Source: Escherichia phage UE-S1
Direction: 5' to 3' (one strand)
Sequence record: ON568341.1
Length of the DNA: 64,000 nucleotides
Numbering within the stretch: position 1 is the first letter of the stretch; every line of letters begins with the position of its first letter. Under the pieces are notes generated by a model that was given only the letters and a program-made list of their open reading frames with translations, was not told the origin of the DNA and searched no databases. Below, piece by piece: positions 71 to 43,144 of this stretch. The translations under genes and the position numbers were made by a program.

Positions 71-144
71 GGTCAGTTAGTTCAGTTGGTAGAACGCTTC
101 ACTTCATAATGAAGAACTTACAGGTTCAAATCCAGAACTGACCA
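71..144 (+). tRNA. tRNA-like element, atypical (possible pseudo-tRNA or variant tRNA)
   Basis: Acceptor stem GGTCAGT/ACTGACC, D-arm GTTC..GAAC, T-loop TTCAAAT; but anticodon stem CTTCA/TGAAG encloses an 8-nt loop CTTCATAA and T-stem has 2 mismatches. Confidence 0.3.
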
Positions 145-151
145 CAAAAAA

Positions 152-1849
<1,698 letters not shown>

Positions 1850-2108
1850 AATATTCTCCTGAATTTGCTAAAAGTTATAATAATATTTAGTTACAATATT
1901 TATGAAATAGATTAAAAATTTGAAATGTGTTCAAAAATATTATAATAAATTTATAAAAAAAAATAAATGATTTTTTTTGAAACGGTTCAAAAAAATGTGG
2001 TATAATATATATGTTGTTCACGGAAAGATTAAGCGGGGATGCATGAGTTTGCTTAACGGAGATGATTGCAAATCCGATGTTAGTGGGTTAGAATCCCACA
2101 CTCACTGT

Positions 2109-2206
<98 letters not shown>

Positions 2207-2207
2207 C

Positions 2208-2257
<50 letters not shown>

Positions 2258-2330
2258 CTTTTTAATTTAAAAGTACTTTACTGTAGTGTTTAGTACCGTA
2301 TAATGTAAACAAAAGGATAAAATAAAACTC

Positions 2331-2855
<525 letters not shown>

Positions 2856-2897
2856 TTAAAAAAATCAGTACTTTATTATTGACTAAATAGTTCAGTG

Positions 2898-3263
<366 letters not shown>

Positions 3264-3280
3264 TTCACATGATATAGGGA

Positions 3281-3542
<262 letters not shown>

Positions 3543-3550
3543 GAATTTAA

Positions 3551-3952
3551 ATGAAAAAGAATGACTTGATCAAAATGCTTCAAGAAATTGACGGCAATCC
3601 AGAGATTGTTATTTGGAATGGATACGTCGATGATTATATGAACATCGAAAAAGGCTTGACTAAAATCACTCTAGTCAAAGAAACCGAACAGTTTCTTCAG
3701 AGTGCATTAGAGCACGAATGGTGTGAACGTAACAATACATTCGACATTCCAGAAGACCAACGAACCAAGATTGCAGAACGTGCTAAAGAACTGCATAAGA
3801 AACGCGAATACGATTTCCAGAACCCATATGTCACTGAAGACGAATTCAATCGCTGGTACGGTAAAAAGAAATTGACAAAGTATGTCCTTTCACCTAAACT
3901 ACGTGGTAAGACTTCACTTGGTGTATTCAACGCCGCAGACTTAAACTACTAG
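3551..3952 (+). CDS. hypothetical protein (133 aa)
   Basis: Track ORF, AGGA RBS; N-terminus MKKNDLIKMLQEI paralogous to next gene. Confidence 0.55.
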   Translation: MKKNDLIKMLQEIDGNPEIVIWNGYVDDYMNIEKGLTKITLVKETEQFLQSALEHEWCERNNTFDIPEDQRTKIAERAKELHKKREYDFQNPYVTEDEFNRWYGKKKLTKYVLSPKLRGKTSLGVFNAADLNY

Positions 3953-3961
3953 CGGGTATTA

Positions 3962-4229
<268 letters not shown>

Positions 4230-4273
4230 GATTCCCGATTCAGTAGTTTTAAAGCTGACCCGTATGTGCCTAT

Positions 4274-4373
<100 letters not shown>

Positions 4374-4374
4374 T

Positions 4375-4508
<134 letters not shown>

Positions 4509-4510
4509 TA

Positions 4511-4592
<82 letters not shown>

Positions 4593-4593
4593 G

Positions 4594-4626
<33 letters not shown>

Positions 4627-4631
4627 GTGCT

Positions 4632-4753
<122 letters not shown>

Positions 4754-4774
4754 TATCTTACTTTTAAACAAACT

Positions 4775-4848
4775 GCCTCAATAGCAAAATTGGTAATGCA
4801 CACGATTTGTAATCGTGAGATTTTTCCGTTCGAGTCGGAATTGGGGCA
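4775..4848 (+). tRNA. tRNA-Thr (anticodon TGT)
   Basis: Acceptor GCCTCAA/TTGGGGC (one G-U), anticodon stem CACGA/TCGTG with loop TTTGTAA, T-arm TTCCG-TTCGAGT-CGGAA; 6-nt variable loop. Confidence 0.65.
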
Positions 4849-4864
4849 CAAATAAAGGCACATT

Positions 4865-15732: not shown

Positions 15733-16686
15733 TTGAAAAAACTAGATTTGAATGCAATTGCAGATGAAGTACTGGACGAATGTTTTTCTAATGAAGAAGT
15801 CAATACACTTGATGCATTAGATTCAGTACAAGATGAAGATAAAGTTCAAAGTAATTTCAAGTTTAATATTAGTCTTAAGCGTCCACATAATGTAACAAAT
15901 GAAGATCTAATCCGTGATATTCAAGCTGGTATCAATGTTAAGAAAAACACTGAACTATTAGTTCGTTATAATTATGGACTAATTGTTGATGTTGCAAGTA
16001 AATGCACGTGTTATATCCCATTTGAAGATAAGATATCATATGGTATTGAGGGATTCATGCGAGCACTAAAAACATTTGATCTTAGTAAGAATGTTAAGTT
16101 CGTTACATACGCATCTTCCAGCATTTATATGACAGTATACAATGAAAGTTCAGATGCCAATCATCTGGTACATTTTCCACGCTATATGAGTGTTAATAAG
16201 ATACAAGTTAAACGCTTTTGTCATGAATATGAGCGTAAGCACGGTTGTCGTCCAACACCTGAACTAATTTCAGAGGGGACGGGAATTGAAATTCAACATG
16301 TAAAGAATTGTTTGTTATTCCAAAGTGAATATACTGCATTGGATGCACCATTGGATGGTGTTTCGGATGGTACGTTAAGTGATATTCTTCATACATCTGA
16401 TTGCGATTACAATCTTAATGTTGATAGTATTCGTGCACCTTTGCGTTATGTCATTAATGATCTAACACATGAATTGAGTACGAAAGAACGTGAAATTATC
16501 CAGCGTGTTCATGGTTTAGGTGAATTTAATCCTGAATCACTTCGTGAAATTGCTGATAGTGGTTTTGTTGATGACAATGGCAAATGTGTTAAATCAAGAT
16601 CATCTGTACACCGTAAATATAGTGAAGCTATAAAAAAACTTAAGAAATTAGTACTTGAAAAAGGGTACGAATACGAAGATTTCTAA
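15733..16686 (+). CDS. sigma-70-family-like protein (regions 2 and 4 recognisable)
   Basis: LVRYNYGLIVDVASK...GIEGFMRALKTFD...VKFVTYASSSIYM resembles sigma region 2; C-terminal SLREIADS..KSRSSVHRKYSEAIKKLKKL resembles region 4.2; TTG start after AGGAG. Confidence 0.5.
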   Translation: MKKLDLNAIADEVLDECFSNEEVNTLDALDSVQDEDKVQSNFKFNISLKRPHNVTNEDLIRDIQAGINVKKNTELLVRYNYGLIVDVASKCTCYIPFEDKISYGIEGFMRALKTFDLSKNVKFVTYASSSIYMTVYNESSDANHLVHFPRYMSVNKIQVKRFCHEYERKHGCRPTPELISEGTGIEIQHVKNCLLFQSEYTALDAPLDGVSDGTLSDILHTSDCDYNLNVDSIRAPLRYVINDLTHELSTKEREIIQRVHGLGEFNPESLREIADSGFVDDNGKCVKSRSSVHRKYSEAIKKLKKLVLEKGYEYEDF

Positions 16687-16693
16687 AGAACAA

Positions 16694-16720
16694 GGGTTGA
16701 CTTAGGTCAACCCTTTTTTT
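16694..16720 (+). terminator. intrinsic terminator
   Basis: GGGTTGACC-TTAG-GTCAACCC hairpin plus T7 run. Confidence 0.7.
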
Positions 16721-17348
16721 ATGGGACAAATTATAAAGTTATGATATACTTATTATGTACAATCCTGTTGAATGCAGAAATGCATATAAATGAGAACCTG
16801 ATCCTATCGAAAATGTAGATGGCAGATGAGCAGTTCAACAGTGCGATGAGCAGAAGAAACCCGTCAGATGTGGGCATAGTTTGAACCCCTCACGGCAATG
16901 CGGCTCAATAAAGAACCATGTTAGGATAGCTGATGGTTCCTTGATAGACATATAAGGATAACACCTTACGAATTATCTAAGGGAGAGTACTCAAATTTTG
17001 TACAAGAAAGTTGCGTCCAAAATTTGAGTACTCACATTAAGTATTTGATTGCATAGATACTTAATGAAGATACACTATGTTTAAAAGTGTAGACCGTCAT
17101 ATGAAACTGAAGTAGAGAGAAACAGGATGACCCGCTTTCGCACTCGTTATGAGTAATCTTCAATGCAATAGCTCTGATACCATCAGCGTCAAATTTCCCT
17201 CCGCAGTGGGGGGAAGAAAAATCACCTCCTCAAATCCCGTCAATATTAAAAGTCCTTGACAGTTATTAATCATTCGCGTAGAATACGTAGTATTAGAAGC
17301 GAACAGACATCTCGAAGAGATGGATGATTAACTATTGAGGAATTTCCA

Positions 17349-17558
17349 ATGAATTCAGTAATCTTTTTAGTAGTCGCTCTTTCAATTCAATCCGGTGTAC
17401 AAATTACCCCAATGAACTCAATGAACCAATGTTTTTCAGTACGTGACAGTACTTATGAACAAGTAAACCACATGTCACTTATGACAGTTAGTAAAGAAAG
17501 TATGTGGTGTTACAATAGTAATACTAACACAAAGCTTATTGTAGGACAAAATCAATGA
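17349..17558 (+). CDS. hypothetical protein (69 aa), hydrophobic N-terminus
   Basis: Track ORF; upstream TTGACA-17-TAGAAT promoter-like. Confidence 0.45.
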   Translation: MNSVIFLVVALSIQSGVQITPMNSMNQCFSVRDSTYEQVNHMSLMTVSKESMWCYNSNTNTKLIVGQNQ

Positions 17559-17786: not shown

Positions 17787-18575
17787 ATGAGCACTATAGA
17801 TGAACTGATTCGACGGAATTCAAAATACTACAAACCATCAGAAATTGTAGGTAACATTACCAAATCAGAGTTTGGTCCAAATACTCGAAAACTAATTCAT
17901 GTAATGTCACGTGATGGCTTTAAATGTGATTGTTGTGGTGAATCCAATGTGGTATTCACTTTGCATAAGCACAGTACTAAAGACCGTTATAAATTCAGAC
18001 CTTATGTACTTAAAGGGAAACGCCTTGTACGCATGACGTTAGACCATAATGTACTGGACTGTCTTCAGGGTGGTAATGATAAAGAGAACATGACTGCATT
18101 ATGTGAAGATTGTAACGCATTACGCCAACATAAGTTTGCTGAGTACAGTGAGTTTAAACACTGGTATCATAATGCGGAACGTTCAATCGAGCCGGACGTT
18201 AACTACTGCTTCATTGAGTACATTAAGAATGCTAAAGATACATATATTCTTAAATCTATGGAACCAATTACCGTGTTTCCAATGAACCTATTCACTACAT
18301 TAAAGAATAGTTTTATGGTAGGTGATATTGATGCATTCAAGTATTTTGACAAAGGTGCAAAACATTTTGAAGTTCAATGTCTTAGTACTGCACTATGTGA
18401 ACTTATTAAAATTTACATAAAAGATTATTTGGGTATTGACAATGTACGCGTACCAGAGTATACTTTTTCTATTGATTTCGATTGTGAATCAATCAAAGAG
18501 TTTGGGATTCTTTTCAATAAACAAATAGAACTTGCAATTCAAAACGAAATCAAGTACTATAATACTAACATTTAA
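17787..18575 (+). CDS. HNH-motif nuclease-domain protein with Cys cluster
   Basis: CDCCGE and LDHNVLDCLQGGNDKENMTALCEDCNALRQHK match the HNH D-H..GG..N..C..C..K pattern. Confidence 0.55.
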   Translation: MSTIDELIRRNSKYYKPSEIVGNITKSEFGPNTRKLIHVMSRDGFKCDCCGESNVVFTLHKHSTKDRYKFRPYVLKGKRLVRMTLDHNVLDCLQGGNDKENMTALCEDCNALRQHKFAEYSEFKHWYHNAERSIEPDVNYCFIEYIKNAKDTYILKSMEPITVFPMNLFTTLKNSFMVGDIDAFKYFDKGAKHFEVQCLSTALCELIKIYIKDYLGIDNVRVPEYTFSIDFDCESIKEFGILFNKQIELAIQNEIKYYNTNI

Positions 18576-40704: not shown

Positions 40705-41880
40705 TCAAATTGTCGGAAGTGGGAATTCTTTCATCACCGATGAACTGTTTGCTGCAATATTATCAGGAGATTTACCAGCGTAGTATAATTTATTATTAAT
40801 AAACATATATAGCGTTGCATCGTTCCCTGCTACAAGAGAATTACTTTTCTTAAAAATAACCCCTGGGGGTAAAATAGCTTCAACAAATGAACCTGATTCT
40901 CGTGTTGAATTGTTTGCCAATTGACCATTATTATTATAACCAGTACTATAAATTTTACCTGAACTATAATACACAAGACCACGTGTACTAATGTTTTCTA
41001 TACGAATGAATTCACTATCGTCCGGTACTGTAGTTGATAGAACTGGGTATAACTTATAAGCTGATGTTACATTATTATTACCCAATTGACCATAACCTTG
41101 AAAGCCTAGTGCATACATAGGACATGATTCTGGTGTACCTTTTGTTATAATACCAATATAATTCGAACTACAAAAAATATCCACTGCTTCTACAACATTT
41201 GTACCCTTATATTGAACCCAAGGAAATACATATGATTGTTGTTTGCCATTACCCAAAACACCGGAAGTTGTTGTACCTGTACGCCACATTGTATCATCAA
41301 GTTTAATAATCCAGTTAGCAGTTGTTATAGTTGAACAGAATTTTTTAACATTATCAACCAAGTATGTAAATTTATTATAATATGATGCAGTGTTTATTCC
41401 AAATTTAGCACCAGTATTGTCACCTAACAAATATAAACTATTATCTGTACCTAAAATCAAAACATAATCATGACCCACGTATATCTTTTTGATTTTTGAA
41501 ATACCAAATTGTGTAAAATAGCTGGTACATTCAGTGAATATTGTTACATGATTTGATGTATTATTACCTAGCCATTTATCTAAACCACTATAAAAGAACC
41601 TATCATCATTTGTGCGTATTAGACAAAAAGAATTATTTGTACTGCACCAGAAATCTTTGACATTACTATATATTTTTGTCCATTCAGTTACTTGATTAGT
41701 ATGACCTAAACCAAAAATTCCACCATTTTGTAGTCCCATAGCCCATATTGAACCATTTTTATCAAGAAGCATTGTGCATGTAAATGAATACCCACACGCT
41801 GGAGTAACTAATTTAACAAAATTGGGAATATATGGTAAAACTTTATTCCCATAATTCACCATTCTTCCAAAAGGTAACAT
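40705..41880 (-). CDS. RCC1-like beta-propeller protein with conserved MLPFGRM N-terminus (array member 8)
   Basis: MLPFGRMVNYGN; repeats GYGQLGNNN, NNNGQLANNS. Confidence 0.7.
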   Translation of the reverse strand: MLPFGRMVNYGNKVLPYIPNFVKLVTPACGYSFTCTMLLDKNGSIWAMGLQNGGIFGLGHTNQVTEWTKIYSNVKDFWCSTNNSFCLIRTNDDRFFYSGLDKWLGNNTSNHVTIFTECTSYFTQFGISKIKKIYVGHDYVLILGTDNSLYLLGDNTGAKFGINTASYYNKFTYLVDNVKKFCSTITTANWIIKLDDTMWRTGTTTSGVLGNGKQQSYVFPWVQYKGTNVVEAVDIFCSSNYIGIITKGTPESCPMYALGFQGYGQLGNNNVTSAYKLYPVLSTTVPDDSEFIRIENISTRGLVYYSSGKIYSTGYNNNGQLANNSTRESGSFVEAILPPGVIFKKSNSLVAGNDATLYMFINNKLYYAGKSPDNIAANSSSVMKEFPLPTI

Positions 41881-41916: not shown

Positions 41917-41948
41917 AAATAATAATGCCAGTACTCAAATACTGGCAT
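41917..41948 (-). terminator. inter-cassette hairpin plus T-run
   Basis: ATGCCAGTA-CTCAA-ATACTGGCAT. Confidence 0.5.
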
Positions 41949-41953
41949 TATTA

Positions 41954-43144
41954 TTACAATTGTCTAGGTGTATCCAGAACATATCTATTTGTGCTAGGAC
42001 CGCCATCATCATAAGTTCCGGTTGAATATATATTTTTCATATCAGCAGTTAGAAATGTACGATACGAACCTCTATATATTTTTATTTTATCATACATATT
42101 ATATGTAATTTGTGCTGGCATTGGACATATAGTAAATCTTCCAATAGTCCCCACTGAACCTACCCCCAATGAGCCAGCATAACTACTCGCATTTAAACCA
42201 GTTGCATATACACCAGAACTCGTAACTAGTATACTAGATTGTGATGGGTATCCAGTATGAATTGAATACAAAGTTCCAGGTGGTAATGTCGTACTATTTC
42301 TCCCTAATACAGCAAGTGCCGAACTGGATGTGGTATTATTACCCCATGCACCATTACTTGCTAAACCACCAACTAGGAACTGACGTACACCCGTACTTGG
42401 ATTTTCCACCAAAGCACTGACTGAACCCATTGAGCATCCAGTGTATTGTAACGTTTTTGTGTATGTTGTACTTGGCTGATATAAAGTATATTCATTATAT
42501 AAAGTCCATGTAGTACTGGAACTTATACCGGATGTACCACCACCAATATATAAATTATTTTGTTTATCAAACAACATTACACAGTTATTTGTTGACATTA
42601 TTTGTGCAATATCAACATTAGGTGTTACTGCTTTTACAAATGAACCATCTGTTATTTGTTGAGTTTTTCCAGTACCATCAGCGAATTGTCTAGCCCCACT
42701 CCAACCAGTACTCCATATTGTATTATTATCCATTAAGAAAGTAAACCACGTAGTACCTGCATACATCTGTTTAATTGAAGTACTTGAACTTTGTTTGTAC
42801 AAATTTTCAATATATTGGTTATAACTTAAAAATGATGTAGTACTGGTTGGTAAACCAATATGACTACCAAATCCACAATAGAAATAATTTAAGTCATTAT
42901 CTTGAACTAACAAAGTTCCTTGTGTGATCCAGCAATCATTAACGTTTTCTCTAATTAATGTCCATGTTCTTAATGCAGTGTTGTTTCCTCTCCCAAACTG
43001 CCCAAAACTATTATTACCTCGTGCATATAGTTGACCATCAGTATAAAGTACAACAACATCAGTATCGGTTGTTAGTATTTTCTTAATTTGAAGTGGGATA
43101 GGTACAATATTCCCGTACTTAACCATTCTTGCAAAAGGTAACAT
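41954..43144 (-). CDS. conserved-N-terminus family protein, beta-propeller-like (array member 7)
   Basis: MLPFARMVKYGNIVP; G/S/T/N-rich with NSFGQFGRGNN repeat. Confidence 0.65.
   Translation of the reverse strand: MLPFARMVKYGNIVPIPLQIKKILTTDTDVVVLYTDGQLYARGNNSFGQFGRGNNTALRTWTLIRENVNDCWITQGTLLVQDNDLNYFYCGFGSHIGLPTSTTSFLSYNQYIENLYKQSSSTSIKQMYAGTTWFTFLMDNNTIWSTGWSGARQFADGTGKTQQITDGSFVKAVTPNVDIAQIMSTNNCVMLFDKQNNLYIGGGTSGISSSTTWTLYNEYTLYQPSTTYTKTLQYTGCSMGSVSALVENPSTGVRQFLVGGLASNGAWGNNTTSSSALAVLGRNSTTLPPGTLYSIHTGYPSQSSILVTSSGVYATGLNASSYAGSLGVGSVGTIGRFTICPMPAQITYNMYDKIKIYRGSYRTFLTADMKNIYSTGTYDDGGPSTNRYVLDTPRQL

What the first reader, a model, noticed from the sequence alone, without database searches (positions are those of the whole stretch)
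16721..17340. ORF-free, GC-elevated 600-bp island with a 16-bp perfect inverted repeat
Between the terminator of the sigma-like gene and the next promoter there is no ORF, the base composition looks GC-richer, and GAGTACTCAAATTTTG..(17 nt)..CAAAATTTGAGTACTC forms a long perfect hairpin (about 16984-17032). This could be a structured non-coding RNA, an intron or ribozyme remnant, or a protein-binding site.
Basis: seen in the sequence. Interest (0 to 1): 0.5.

Follow-up and report, generated by a model that had tools for sequence, protein, structure and literature searches.

The report
New large structured phage RNA gene
The ORF-free island is a free-standing gene for a roughly 490-nucleotide, heavily folded and pseudoknotted non-coding RNA. 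It is kept in 3-5 diverged copies in Rak2-like jumbo phages, occurs in a few enterobacterial prophage islands, and matches no catalogued RNA family.

Summary
Window 16721-17340 has no credible ORF and is modestly GC-richer (38.4% against 34.3%). It contains a perfect 16-bp hairpin at 16985-17000/17018-17033.

The hairpin is one helix (P8) of a much larger element. This is an RNA of about 490 nt (about 16757-17246, + strand) with its own extended -10 sigma-70 promoter. I mapped about 15 helices and three pseudoknots.

Homologues lie in ORF-free gaps of 61 jumbo-phage genomes (Asteriusvirus, Mimasvirus, Eneladusvirus, Munch-like), at 3-5 places per genome. They also occur in mobile islands of Serratia, Citrobacter and E. 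coli chromosomes.

Covariation is strong: 98-99% of pair cells are canonical, against 31-55% when the partners are slid. A 7-bp loop-to-strand pairing exists in about ten compensatory versions. G-U outnumbers A-C by 130 to 11, which fixes the + strand.

Rfam 15, ARAGORN and the literature searches found no known family. Flanking genes differ between copies, so the RNA most likely acts in trans as a folded RNA. Its biochemical role is unknown and untested.

The parts
16692..16715 (+). Intrinsic terminator of the upstream sigma-like gene. Not part of the RNA; it marks the upstream boundary.
   Evidence: 10-bp stem followed by a T-run. Annotated as a terminator in phage G17.
16723..16750 (+). Promoter of the RNA gene: -35-like GGGACA (16723-28), TG (16742-43) and -10 TATACT (16745-50). 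The predicted start is about 16755-16760.
   Evidence: An extended -10 of the TGnTATAAT type lies 10-50 nt upstream of P1 in 35 of 36 homologous copies. The start site is inferred, not measured.
16757..17246 (+). The structured non-coding RNA gene (conserved block 16761-17246; homologues are 461-536 nt).
   Evidence: nhmmer and CM hits over the full length; conservation; covariation; G-U to A-C ratio of 130:11.
16765..16841 (+). 5' domain. P1 (16765-72/16834-41) encloses hairpin P2 (16773-76/16781-84, GAAA loop) and hairpin P3 (16804-08/16818-22, conserved loop GAAAAUGUA).
   Evidence: 4-6 of 8 P1 pairs and all P2 and P3 pairs show changes on both sides.
16830..16844 (+). PK1: G16830-C16844 and N16831-N'16843 enclose the 3' strand of P1, forming a pseudoknot within the GAG-N...N'-CGA motif.
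   Evidence: helix 4: pair 83/96 occurs as UA:9, AU:8, CG:5 with no broken cell.
16847..16907 (+). P4 (16847-51/16903-07), P5 (16861-64/16892-95) and P5a (16872-74/16886-88) with the conserved 11-nt loop CAUAGUUUGAA. The joining strands AGAAGAAAC and CAAUGCG are invariant.
   Evidence: P5a is replaced by a larger insert or deleted in some paralogues.
16913..16939 (+). Hairpin P6 (16913-19/16933-39).
   Evidence: 5 of 6 pairs have changes on both sides, with 3-4 pair types per position.
16943..16985 (+). Invariant strand GAUAGACAUAU, hairpin P7 (16953-57/16964-68) and invariant AAGGGAG.
   Evidence: P7 occurs as UAAGG/CCUUA, UAGG/CCUA, UGAG/CUCA, UUGAG/CUCAA and UAUGG/CCAUA.
16985..17033 (+).
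   Evidence: Every one of 36 copies folds into a hairpin at this place, with different stem sequences. The loop module sits on P12 instead in two paralogue groups, and on both P8 and P12 in four chromosomal copies (L063, L066, L068, L054).
17035..17066 (+). Hairpin P9 (17035-47/17054-66) with apical loop AUUGCAU.
17048..17169 (+). PK2: the P9 loop AUUGCAU (17048-54) pairs with AUGCAAU (17163-69).
   Evidence: a loop-strand complement of at least 7 nt is found in every copy scored, all Watson-Crick in 34 of 36 and always 14-18 nt upstream of the next conserved block. The 121Q 192-kb paralogue type (L004, L043) is the exception: I read a 6-bp UCAUAU/AUAUGA pairing there by eye. About ten different compensatory sequences occur.
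17071..17091 (+). Hairpin P9a (17071-76/17086-91).
17092..17162 (+). 3' core. Invariant GACCGU; PK3 (17096-100/17127-31) interleaved with P11 (17115-19/17135-39); P10 (17108-12/17158-62); P12 (17143-46/17150-53); invariant GAAACAG and ACCCGC.
   Evidence: 99.3% of cells are paired against 35-55% when slid. PK3, P10, P11 and P12 all show changes on both sides.
17184..17246 (+). 3' region. Conserved CAGCGUCAA (17184-92); hairpin P14 with a C-rich arm and an invariant G6 arm (17194-202/17208-16); conserved tail ending CCCGUCAAUAU. The role is unresolved.
   Evidence: P14 varies only by C-to-U changes, giving G-U pairs. The two ...YGUCAR motifs vary in parallel. In 15 of 36 copies an intrinsic terminator lies between the first motif and P14; the window copy has none.
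17256..17284 (+). Separate sigma-70 promoter (TTGACA, 17 nt, TAGAAT) for the downstream genes. Not part of the RNA.
   Evidence: 11 of 12 consensus matches.

Best explanation
The island is a free-standing gene for a large structured non-coding RNA. The RNA is about 490 nt, on the + strand, spanning about 16757-17246.

Host sigma-70 RNA polymerase would start at an extended -10 promoter placed just after the terminator of the sigma-like gene. The transcript folds into a conserved architecture of about 15 helices held together by three pseudoknots (PK1, PK2, PK3) and long invariant single-stranded segments. The 16-bp hairpin is helix P8. It presents a conserved 17-nt loop that most likely makes a tertiary or protein contact.

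The RNA most likely works in trans as a folded molecule: an RNA-protein scaffold or decoy, a ribozyme, or a self-assembling RNA. It is unlikely to act by regulating the gene next to it.

Shown here: homology, multi-copy distribution, promoter motif, secondary structure with covariation, and strand. Inferred: the transcript ends, action in trans, and any biochemical activity.
For: 1. The core 16797-17245 matches at 68-75% DNA identity in ORF-free gaps of 61 jumbo-phage records, at 3-5 places each. The flanking proteins are far more diverged or unrelated: the sigma-like protein is 33% identical to its Serratia phage BF homologue, and the other neighbours do not match.

2. 36 distinct full-length copies came from IMG/VR and GenBank phages. 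A further 39 full-length copies (48 loci with true hits) came from metagenomes and bacterial genomes.

3. Covariation. In the 5' domain 98.2% of pair cells are canonical against 35-43% when slid; the covariation score is 0.53 against at most 0.11; 0 of 500 shuffles reach it. In the 3' domain the figures are 99.3% against 35-55%. On a partly independent CM alignment that adds prophage and metagenome copies not used to build the model, the figures are 98.5% against 31-47%.

4. PK2, a 7-bp pairing, is kept through about ten different sequence versions.

5. All 36 copies fold on their own into the same P8-P9-P9a arrangement.

6. G-U to A-C in paired columns is 130:11, so the + strand is the folded strand.

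7. TGnTATAAT lies 10-50 nt upstream of P1 in 35 of 36 copies.

8. Downstream genes differ between paralogues and are on the opposite strand in phage Munch and locus L054. A separate promoter serves the downstream genes here. 15 of 36 copies carry an intrinsic terminator.

9. The P8 loop module moves to P12 or is duplicated, as peripheral tertiary-contact elements do in large RNAs.

10. The 5' domain of the window copy is 98.9% identical to that of another paralogue (121Q, 326 kb) and only 64% identical to its positional orthologue. Domains are therefore interchangeable between paralogues.
Against: No expression data exist for any member, so the 5' and 3' ends are predicted only.

The window copy has no terminator within 160 nt after the conserved block. 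The RNA may therefore be the 5' part of a longer transcript, or need processing.

P14 and the tail stay conserved even where a terminator precedes them, which a simple 'RNA ends at the terminator' picture does not explain.

Both strands of the region fold better than shuffles (z = -3.8 and -4.0), so thermodynamic stability alone says nothing about strand.

The sequences are related, so the shuffle controls overstate significance; the slide controls are the stronger ones.

Nothing here reveals the biochemical function.
Confidence: 0.85

Rival explanations
1. The RNA is a cis-acting leader. It modifies or regulates transcription of the co-oriented gene cluster downstream, for example as a processive antiterminator of the HK022 put or EAR type, or as a very large attenuator.
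For: Each jumbo-phage copy sits at the head of a co-oriented gene block behind a strong promoter. 15 of 36 copies have an intrinsic terminator right after the conserved core, whose 5' arm is the conserved GUCAG motif. Conserved sequence continues beyond that terminator. No terminator follows the window copy, so read-through into 17349 and beyond is likely.
Against: Downstream genes are unrelated between paralogues. In phage Munch and in locus L054 the next gene is on the opposite strand. A separate near-consensus promoter lies between the RNA and the downstream genes here and in BF, GAP32 and CBB. At about 490 nt with three pseudoknots, it is far beyond known put or EAR elements.
Confidence: 0.08
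2. The RNA is an origin-of-replication primer. A folded transcript would form a persistent RNA-DNA hybrid at the G6/C-rich segment and prime DNA synthesis, as ColE1 RNA II or the T4 oriF/oriG R-loops do. The 3-5 copies would then be the several origins of a 350-kb genome.
For: Several dispersed copies per genome, each promoter-driven and non-coding. An invariant G6 run lies about 450 nt from the promoter. P14 and the tail are conserved regardless of an upstream terminator, which would fit a DNA-level role. One Serratia chromosomal copy lies after a serine recombinase gene and two ParB/RepB-like genes.
Against: R-loop priming does not need invariant loops and three covarying pseudoknots. Terminators upstream of the G-run in 15 of 36 copies would stop the primer transcript. 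Cumulative GC skew shows no inflection at the locus. No replication protein is linked to the copies.
Confidence: 0.05
3. It is a DNA-level palindrome, such as an operator or other protein-binding site, or the remnant of an intron or mobile element, and has no RNA function of its own.
For: A 16-bp perfect inverted repeat is a classic dimer-binding or cruciform shape. The element is multi-copy. An HNH-like ORF lies 450 nt downstream.
Against: The stem sequence of P8 is not conserved; only its pairing is. Pairing tolerates G-U but not A-C, at 130:11, which means RNA rather than duplex DNA. Conservation spans about 490 nt, not only the palindrome. No gene is interrupted: the sigma-like ORF is complete and ends at a terminator. 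No terminal repeats or target duplications were seen. Paralogues are 55-70% identical and syntenic across genera, so they are ancient and not recently transposed. No match to Rfam intron models.
Confidence: 0.02

Closest known systems
GOLLD, ROOL and OLE: large 'ornate' bacterial and phage RNAs (Rfam; cryo-EM structures in PMC12286853)
   Same: A very large (over 400 nt), intricately folded and pseudoknotted non-coding RNA with many invariant unpaired nucleotides. It is carried by phages and prophages as a free-standing gene, and its function is unknown. The paralogue-specific 7-bp PK2 pairing could in principle be intermolecular, like the contacts that build ROOL and GOLLD homo-oligomers.
   Different: No covariance-model match even at E up to 10. 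The hosts are Enterobacterales and their jumbo phages, not Lactobacillales, rumen or lake organisms. There are 3-5 diverged paralogues per genome. It is not next to tRNA genes: the nearest tRNA in the window is 12 kb away. Oligomerisation is untested.
phi29 pRNA (packaging RNA)
   Same: A phage-encoded structured RNA with its own promoter, whose loop complementarity covaries. For pRNA this is knowledge from the literature, not tested here.
   Different: pRNA is about 120-174 nt and present as one copy near a genome end. No Rfam match was found. The present RNA also occurs in small chromosomal islands that have no visible packaging genes.
PA5oct ncRNA001-004 (PMC7318152)
   Same: ORF-free regions of 236-619 nt in a jumbo phage related to 121Q, PBECO4 and GAP32. 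Two of them are highly transcribed in RNA-seq. This shows that such phages do express long non-coding RNAs.
   Different: ncRNA001 and ncRNA002 were tested and show no detectable homology by nhmmer or by the 5'-domain covariance model. ncRNA003 and ncRNA004 were not fetched or tested. The authors reported no similarity of ncRNA1 and ncRNA2 to any GenBank sequence other than phage MIJ3.
ColE1 RNA II and T4 oriF/oriG primer transcripts
   Same: A promoter-driven non-coding transcript of about 0.5 kb with a G-run near its 3' part. T4 has several origins per genome, comparable with the several copies here (literature knowledge).
   Different: Those RNAs lack a deeply conserved pseudoknotted fold. 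Here terminators often precede the G-run.
HK022 put and Bacillus EAR processive antitermination RNAs
   Same: A structured RNA just downstream of a promoter at the head of a phage gene block, sometimes followed by a terminator.
   Different: put is about 70 nt and EAR about 120 nt. Here the downstream genes are not conserved, are sometimes on the other strand, and have their own promoter.

Membership tests
Any Rfam 15 family (4227 covariance models) | A covariance-model score at or above the family's gathering threshold, or at least a consistent sub-threshold hit across homologues | tested here: not met
   At gathering threshold the whole window gives only 5 tRNAs. At E up to 10 on 16600-17450 there are only chance-level hits, such as terminator-like sRNAs and miRNA hairpins on P8. 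At E up to 10 on 12 diverse homologous loci, no family hits the element.
Group I intron | An interrupted host gene with flanking exons; a P3-P7 pseudoknot enclosing P4-P6; a match to the Intron_gpI model | tested here: not met
   The sigma-like ORF upstream is complete (Sigma70 r2-r4) and ends at a terminator. The element has its own promoter. PK3 and P11 interleave without a P4-P6-like domain between them. No Rfam hit.
RNase P RNA and tmRNA | A match to the RNase P models with the CR-I/CR-V P4 pairing; for tmRNA, a tRNA-like domain and tag ORF detected by ARAGORN | tested here: not met
   No Rfam hit at E up to 10. ARAGORN finds no tmRNA in the window. The resemblance of GAAACAG...ACCCGCUU to RNase P CR-V is recalled from memory only, and here that segment pairs locally (PK3 and P11).
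GOLLD, ROOL or OLE as families | A match to the family covariance model | tested here: not met
Large ornate RNA as a kind (over 400 nt, multi-pseudoknot, conserved by covariation, no coding capacity) | Length over 400 nt; many covarying helices; pseudoknots; invariant unpaired nucleotides; no ORF | tested here: met
   Length 461-536 nt. Changes on both sides in 21 of 34 pairs (5' domain), 18 of 29 pairs (middle domain) and 12 of 29 pairs (3' domain). PK1, PK2 and PK3 are supported. Invariant blocks. No conserved ORF.
Large ornate RNA as a kind | Homo-oligomeric assembly, as shown for GOLLD, ROOL and OLE | not testable with these tools
   Covariation cannot tell intra- from intermolecular PK2 pairing. 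It needs native gels, SEC-MALS or cryo-EM of the transcript.
Riboswitch or cis-regulatory leader | A constant functional class of downstream gene, and an expression platform overlapping the conserved fold | tested here: not met
   Downstream genes are unrelated between paralogues and sometimes on the opposite strand. A separate downstream promoter is present. A terminator sharing the GUCAG motif exists in only 15 of 36 copies.
Transcribed RNA gene | A detectable transcript with defined ends | not testable with these tools
   Only promoter motifs (35 of 36 copies) and the strand asymmetry of wobble pairs are available. No RNA-seq for Asteriusvirus was found in the literature library.
Mobile element (IS, MITE or homing element) | Terminal inverted repeats or target-site duplications; near-identical copies within a genome | tested here: not met
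   No flanking repeats. Paralogues are 55-73% identical and sit at syntenic loci in different genera.

The most novel reading that the evidence does not exclude
This is a previously undescribed class of large RNA that works through its three-dimensional fold. It would be either a new natural ribozyme, or an RNA that self-assembles into a higher-order particle through the paralogue-specific PK2 pairing, as ROOL and GOLLD do. Enterobacterial jumbo phages would keep it as a set of 3-5 orthogonal paralogues, and it would be exchanged with temperate elements.
Probability: 0.3. Interest if true: 0.9.

Novelty: categorically new. Interest (0 to 1): 0.8.

Why it matters
Only about a dozen classes of bacterial or phage non-coding RNA longer than 300-400 nt are known. 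Nearly every one whose function was solved turned out to be a ribozyme, the core of a ribonucleoprotein machine, or an unexpected RNA-only assembly.

This RNA lives in E. coli, Salmonella, Serratia and Erwinia phages that can be grown and engineered. Its function is therefore directly testable, unlike GOLLD, ROOL or OLE, whose hosts are harder to work with.

It is among the most conserved sequences across these 350-kb genomes and is currently unannotated, or overlaid with spurious 'hypothetical protein' calls. The several paralogues with private PK2 sequences, and the movable P8 loop module, provide a ready-made set of natural variants for structure-function work.

Tried and rejected
- **Rfam.** Gathering threshold on the whole window; E up to 10 on the locus; E up to 10 on 12 homologous loci. 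Nothing found.
- **ARAGORN**: only the five tRNAs at 71-4849.
- **A second copy in the window.** blastn with word size 7, nhmmer and CM R1 find only this one.
- **PA5oct ncRNA001 and ncRNA002 as homologues.** Rejected by nhmmer --max and by CM R1.
- **A constant protein partner next to the RNA.** All-against-all BLASTP and tblastn of neighbours found only paralogue-specific synteny. Large serine recombinase and CI-like repressor neighbours occur only in the chromosomal copies. PADLOC hits in the E. coli island (PDC-M45) belong to separate genes on the other strand.
- **Hammerhead reading of CAGAUGAG...CGAA.** Rejected, because the required C3, U4, A6 and A14 positions vary.
- **A small ORF starting at GGGGGGAUG in the tail.** Rejected: the window has AAG instead of AUG, and 1-nt indels break the frame.
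- **Pairing of the 3' tail with UUGAG at 16826, and a conserved P13 hairpin.** Neither is supported: there are no compensatory changes, and the window and BF use different registers.
- **RNAalifold on the full-length MAFFT alignment.** It gave a poor structure because of variable inserts; per-domain alignments were used instead. mafft-qinsi is not installed.
- **Plasmid collection.** No match.
- **Literature.** Seven searches and the jumbo-phage genome papers and reviews I read give no description of this RNA.
Full report
**1. The observation**

The window is from an Asteriusvirus-type jumbo phage: 91-92% DNA identity to Escherichia phages 121Q, PBECO4, slurp01 and G17.

- The upstream ORF 15733-16686 carries Sigma70 regions 2 and 3 above Pfam's cut-offs, plus a sub-threshold region 4. 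It ends at a clean intrinsic terminator at 16692-16715.
- The next ORF starts at 17349. It lies behind a near-consensus promoter: TTGACA 17256-61, 17 nt, TAGAAT 17279-84.
- Between these two genes the longest ORF on either strand is 48 aa.
- GC is 38.4% for 16721-17340 and 40.1% for the conserved core. The window mean is 34.3%, which puts the island at the 85th percentile of 620-nt windows. This is a real but unremarkable rise.
- The inverted repeat is exact: 16985-17000 pairs perfectly with 17018-17033, with 17 nt between the arms. Only two such 16-bp perfect repeats exist in the 64 kb, and shuffles give essentially none.

**2. What is there: homologues**

A blastn search of 50,697 phage genomes finds the core 16797-17245 in 61 records, and only there. 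They are Escherichia and Salmonella Asteriusvirus, Cronobacter GAP32, Pectobacterium CBB, Xanthomonas XbC2 and XaC1 (Mimasvirus), Serratia BF, Erwinia pEa_SNUABM and Yersinia fHe-Yen9 (Eneladusvirus), and the Munch, 7t3 and fENko-Kae01 group.

- Identity outside the genus is 68-75%.
- There are 3-5 separate places per genome.
- Almost every place is listed with 'none' under annotated features.
- In all eight loci inspected the match fills an ORF-free gap of 600-740 nt.

An exact-pattern scan of IMG/VR followed by nhmmer gave 36 distinct full-length copies of 461-536 nt. Scans of metagenomes and of one genome per bacterial species added 48 loci with true hits, 39 of them full length. The window holds one copy only.

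The neighbouring proteins are far less conserved than the element. The sigma-like protein is 33% identical to its BF homologue, and most other neighbours are unrelated between paralogue loci.

Each paralogue has kept its own synteny across genera. One example is the copy followed by a hypothetical gene, Dam methylase and cytidylyltransferase, seen both in Asteriusvirus ph0011 and in Mimasvirus CBB. The paralogues are therefore old and individually retained.

**3. It is a transcription unit on the + strand**

- In 35 of 36 copies a TGnTATAAT extended -10 element lies 10-50 nt upstream of the first helix.
- In the window this is TG 16742-43 and TATACT 16745-50, with a -35-like GGGACA at 16723-28.
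- Where the distance is about 45-50 nt, the predicted start falls inside the terminator hairpin of the upstream gene, a compact arrangement.
- In the paired columns G-U occurs 130 times and A-C 11 times. If the other strand were the folded one, the ratio would be reversed.
- Thermodynamic stability does not discriminate: z = -3.8 for the + strand and -4.0 for the - strand.

**4. Structure**

RNAalifold was run domain by domain. It predicted 32, 29 and 27 pairs, of which 20, 18 and 9 show changes on both sides that keep the pair. I added the pseudoknots by hand and obtained these counts:

| Alignment | Cells paired | Cells paired when partners slid 1-3 columns | Covariation score | Score when slid | Shuffles reaching it |
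|---|---|---|---|---|---|
| 5' domain | 98.2% | 35-43% | 0.53 | at most 0.11 | 0 of 500 |
| 3' domain | 99.3% | 35-55% | 0.38 | at most 0.14 | 0 of 500 |
| CM alignment adding prophage and metagenome copies not used to derive the structure | 98.5% | 31-47% | 0.47 | at most 0.07 | 0 of 500 |

Alignments fitted to a model lean towards that model, and related sequences inflate the shuffle control. The slide control is the fairer one, and it is decisive.

Window map:

| Element | Coordinates |
|---|---|
| P1 | 16765-72 / 16834-41 |
| P2 | 16773-76 / 16781-84 |
| P3 | 16804-08 / 16818-22 |
| PK1 | 16830-31 / 16843-44 |
| P4 | 16847-51 / 16903-07 |
| P5 | 16861-64 / 16892-95 |
| P5a | 16872-74 / 16886-88 |
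| P6 | 16913-19 / 16933-39 |
| P7 | 16953-57 / 16964-68 |
| P8 | 16985-17000 / 17018-33 |
| P9 | 17035-47 / 17054-66 |
| PK2 | 17048-54 / 17163-69 |
| P9a | 17071-76 / 17086-91 |
| PK3 | 17096-100 / 17127-31 |
| P10 | 17108-12 / 17158-62 |
| P11 | 17115-19 / 17135-39 |
| P12 | 17143-46 / 17150-53 |
| P14 | 17194-202 / 17208-16 |

Three findings go beyond ordinary helices.

- **PK2.** The apical loop of P9 pairs with a single strand about 110 nt downstream. A loop-strand complement of at least 7 nt is found in every copy scored, all Watson-Crick in 34 of the first 36 and at a fixed place. The two copies of the 121Q 192-kb paralogue type are the exception; there I read a 6-bp UCAUAU/AUAUGA pairing by eye. 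The versions include AUUGCAU, AUUGUAU, UUCAUGU, GUCGAAU, UUCGAAU, CUGAAUU, UCAUAU, UUUAUGUA and UUCAUACA, each with its exact complement.
- **A constant three-hairpin arrangement.** Every one of the 36 copies, folded alone, gives the same three hairpins P8-P9-P9a after the invariant GGGAG, with quite different stem sequences.
- **A movable loop module.** Its stem is variable in sequence and length, but its 17-nt loop is conserved (family consensus UACAAUAUAGAUCCGUC). In two paralogue groups P8 is a short stub and the same loop module sits on an extended P12. Four chromosomal copies (L063, L066, L068, L054) carry it on both. Relocation of a peripheral element while the core stays fixed is how tertiary-contact modules behave in RNase P and group I introns. 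That comparison is established knowledge, not tested here.

Long unpaired stretches are invariant: GAAAAUGUA, GAAACCCGU, CGGCAAUGCGGC, GAUAGACAUAU, AAGGGAG, GACCGU, ACCCGC and GGGGGGA.

**5. Distribution outside jumbo phages**

True copies lie in the chromosomes of:

- Serratia fonticola GTA-SR07
- Serratia sp. 2723
- Serratia sp. L9 (a truncated copy)
- Citrobacter amalonaticus P55
- an Enterobacteriaceae MAG
- two of 5,426 complete E. coli genomes

In most of them the RNA sits close to where ordinary chromosomal genes resume. It is next to a large serine recombinase (Resolvase, Recombinase and Zn-ribbon domains), a CI-type repressor, or both. In E. coli LR-29-1 it lies in a 1.4-kb unannotated gap inside a 10.7-kb island. 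That island is inserted beside ffs and also carries an IS3-disrupted integrase and PDC-M45 candidate defence genes. No plasmid carries it.

No protein family accompanies the RNA in all contexts.

**6. How it most likely works**

- **Shown:** a conserved, promoter-equipped, non-coding unit on the + strand, whose fold is under strong selection.
- **Inferred:** it acts in trans as a folded RNA. Its neighbours differ, the next gene is sometimes convergent, the downstream genes have their own promoter, and 15 of 36 copies end in a canonical terminator.

Its size, its pseudoknots and its invariant unpaired nucleotides are the signature of a ribozyme, a ribonucleoprotein core or an RNA-only assembly. 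They are not the signature of a base-pairing sRNA. I commit to 'trans-acting structured RNA' at 0.85. Within that, I regard a protein-binding scaffold or decoy, a ribozyme and a self-assembling particle as unresolved.

Paralogues within one genome carry different PK2 sequences. In 121Q they are AUUGCAU, AUUGUAU and UCAUAU. This would keep the molecules orthogonal if PK2 were intermolecular, but covariation cannot decide that.

Domains can be swapped between paralogues. The window's first 90 nt are 98.9% identical to the 121Q copy at 326 kb and only 64% identical to the positional orthologue.

**7. What remains unexplained**

- The conserved motif before P14 (CAGCGUCAA) and the one in the tail (CCCGUCAA) change in parallel across copies: CGUCAG/CGUCAG, UGUCAG/UGUCAG and CGUCAA/CGUCAA. 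This suggests that both can pair with one common partner, or both bind the same factor.
- In group C the terminator's 3' arm, CUGAC, is such a common partner. I found none in the window.
- P14 and the tail are conserved even downstream of a terminator.
- The window copy has no terminator at all, so its 3' end is unknown.

**8. Comparison with what is known**

No Rfam 15 family matches, and ARAGORN finds no tmRNA. The membership features of group I introns, RNase P, tmRNA, riboswitches and mobile elements were tested and are not met.

The closest kind is the small set of large ornate RNAs (GOLLD, ROOL, OLE). It resembles them in size, complexity and phage association, but it is not a member of any of those families.

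ncRNA001 and ncRNA002 of the related phage PA5oct were detected by RNA-seq, which shows that such phages express long non-coding RNAs. They are not detectably homologous to this RNA.

Seven full-text searches and the genome papers on phAPEC6 and fEgEco12, plus two jumbo-phage reviews, do not mention this RNA. A large-scale screen of IMG/VR reported motifs averaging 67 nt (PMC10690425). It may contain fragments of this RNA, but not the whole. I cannot exclude a description in literature outside the held library.

**9. Verdict**

The finding is real and much larger than reported. It is a new class of large, pseudoknotted RNA, present in several copies in enterobacterial jumbo phages and shared with a few temperate elements. 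Its function is unknown but experimentally accessible.

Noticed in passing
window 16761-16850, compared with L019:1725-1815 and L014:340-430: The 5' domain (P1-P3) of the window's RNA is 98.9% identical to the 121Q paralogue at 326 kb but only 64% identical to the positional orthologue in 121Q. The remaining roughly 400 nt are 95-97% identical to the orthologue. This points to recombination or gene conversion between paralogous RNA genes.
   Followed up: partly
L063:3531-4116, L066:5393-5900, L068:3692-4159 (- strand), L054:6459-7030, L065:3513-3873, L174:20001-20583: The same RNA occurs in bacterial chromosomes (Citrobacter, Serratia, E. coli, an Enterobacteriaceae MAG). It lies in integrated elements next to large serine recombinases or CI-like repressors. 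In E. coli LR-29-1 it sits in an unannotated 1.4-kb gap of an island beside ffs that also carries PDC-M45 candidate defence genes.
   Followed up: partly
window 17184-17192 and 17235-17243: Two direct copies of a ...YGUCAR motif flank the G6/C-rich hairpin P14 and change in parallel across homologues. In 15 of 36 homologues an intrinsic terminator is inserted between the first motif and P14. No explanation found.
   Followed up: partly
window 41918-41955: The only other perfect 16-bp inverted repeat in the window (AATAATAATGCCAGTA / TACTGGCATTATTATT). It lies in the 73-nt gap between two - strand ORFs (40705-41880 and 41954-43144) and looks like an ordinary terminator. Its loop region gave a weak blastn match to 17022-17068.
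   Followed up: partly
window 71-145: ARAGORN calls a tRNA of undetermined identity with a four-base anticodon (tcat), that is, an enlarged anticodon loop. Rfam scores it as a tRNA at 51.8 bits. Four more tRNAs lie at 2918-4849.
   Followed up: no
window 17787-18575: A 262-aa ORF annotated in relatives as HNH-endonuclease-like has Cys-rich motifs (CDCCGES...CEDCN) but no Pfam hit at E up to 0.01. Short regions (47-98 aa) match at 30-49% identity in several other jumbo-phage loci that hold copies of the RNA.
   Followed up: no
many phage records under the match, for example OR699282.2, PP886230.1 and PQ330092.1: Several GenBank records lay 3-5 short 'hypothetical protein' CDSs over this non-coding RNA gene. 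GAP32 has a 37-aa CDS (GAP32_503A) inside it. These are probably spurious gene calls.
   Followed up: no
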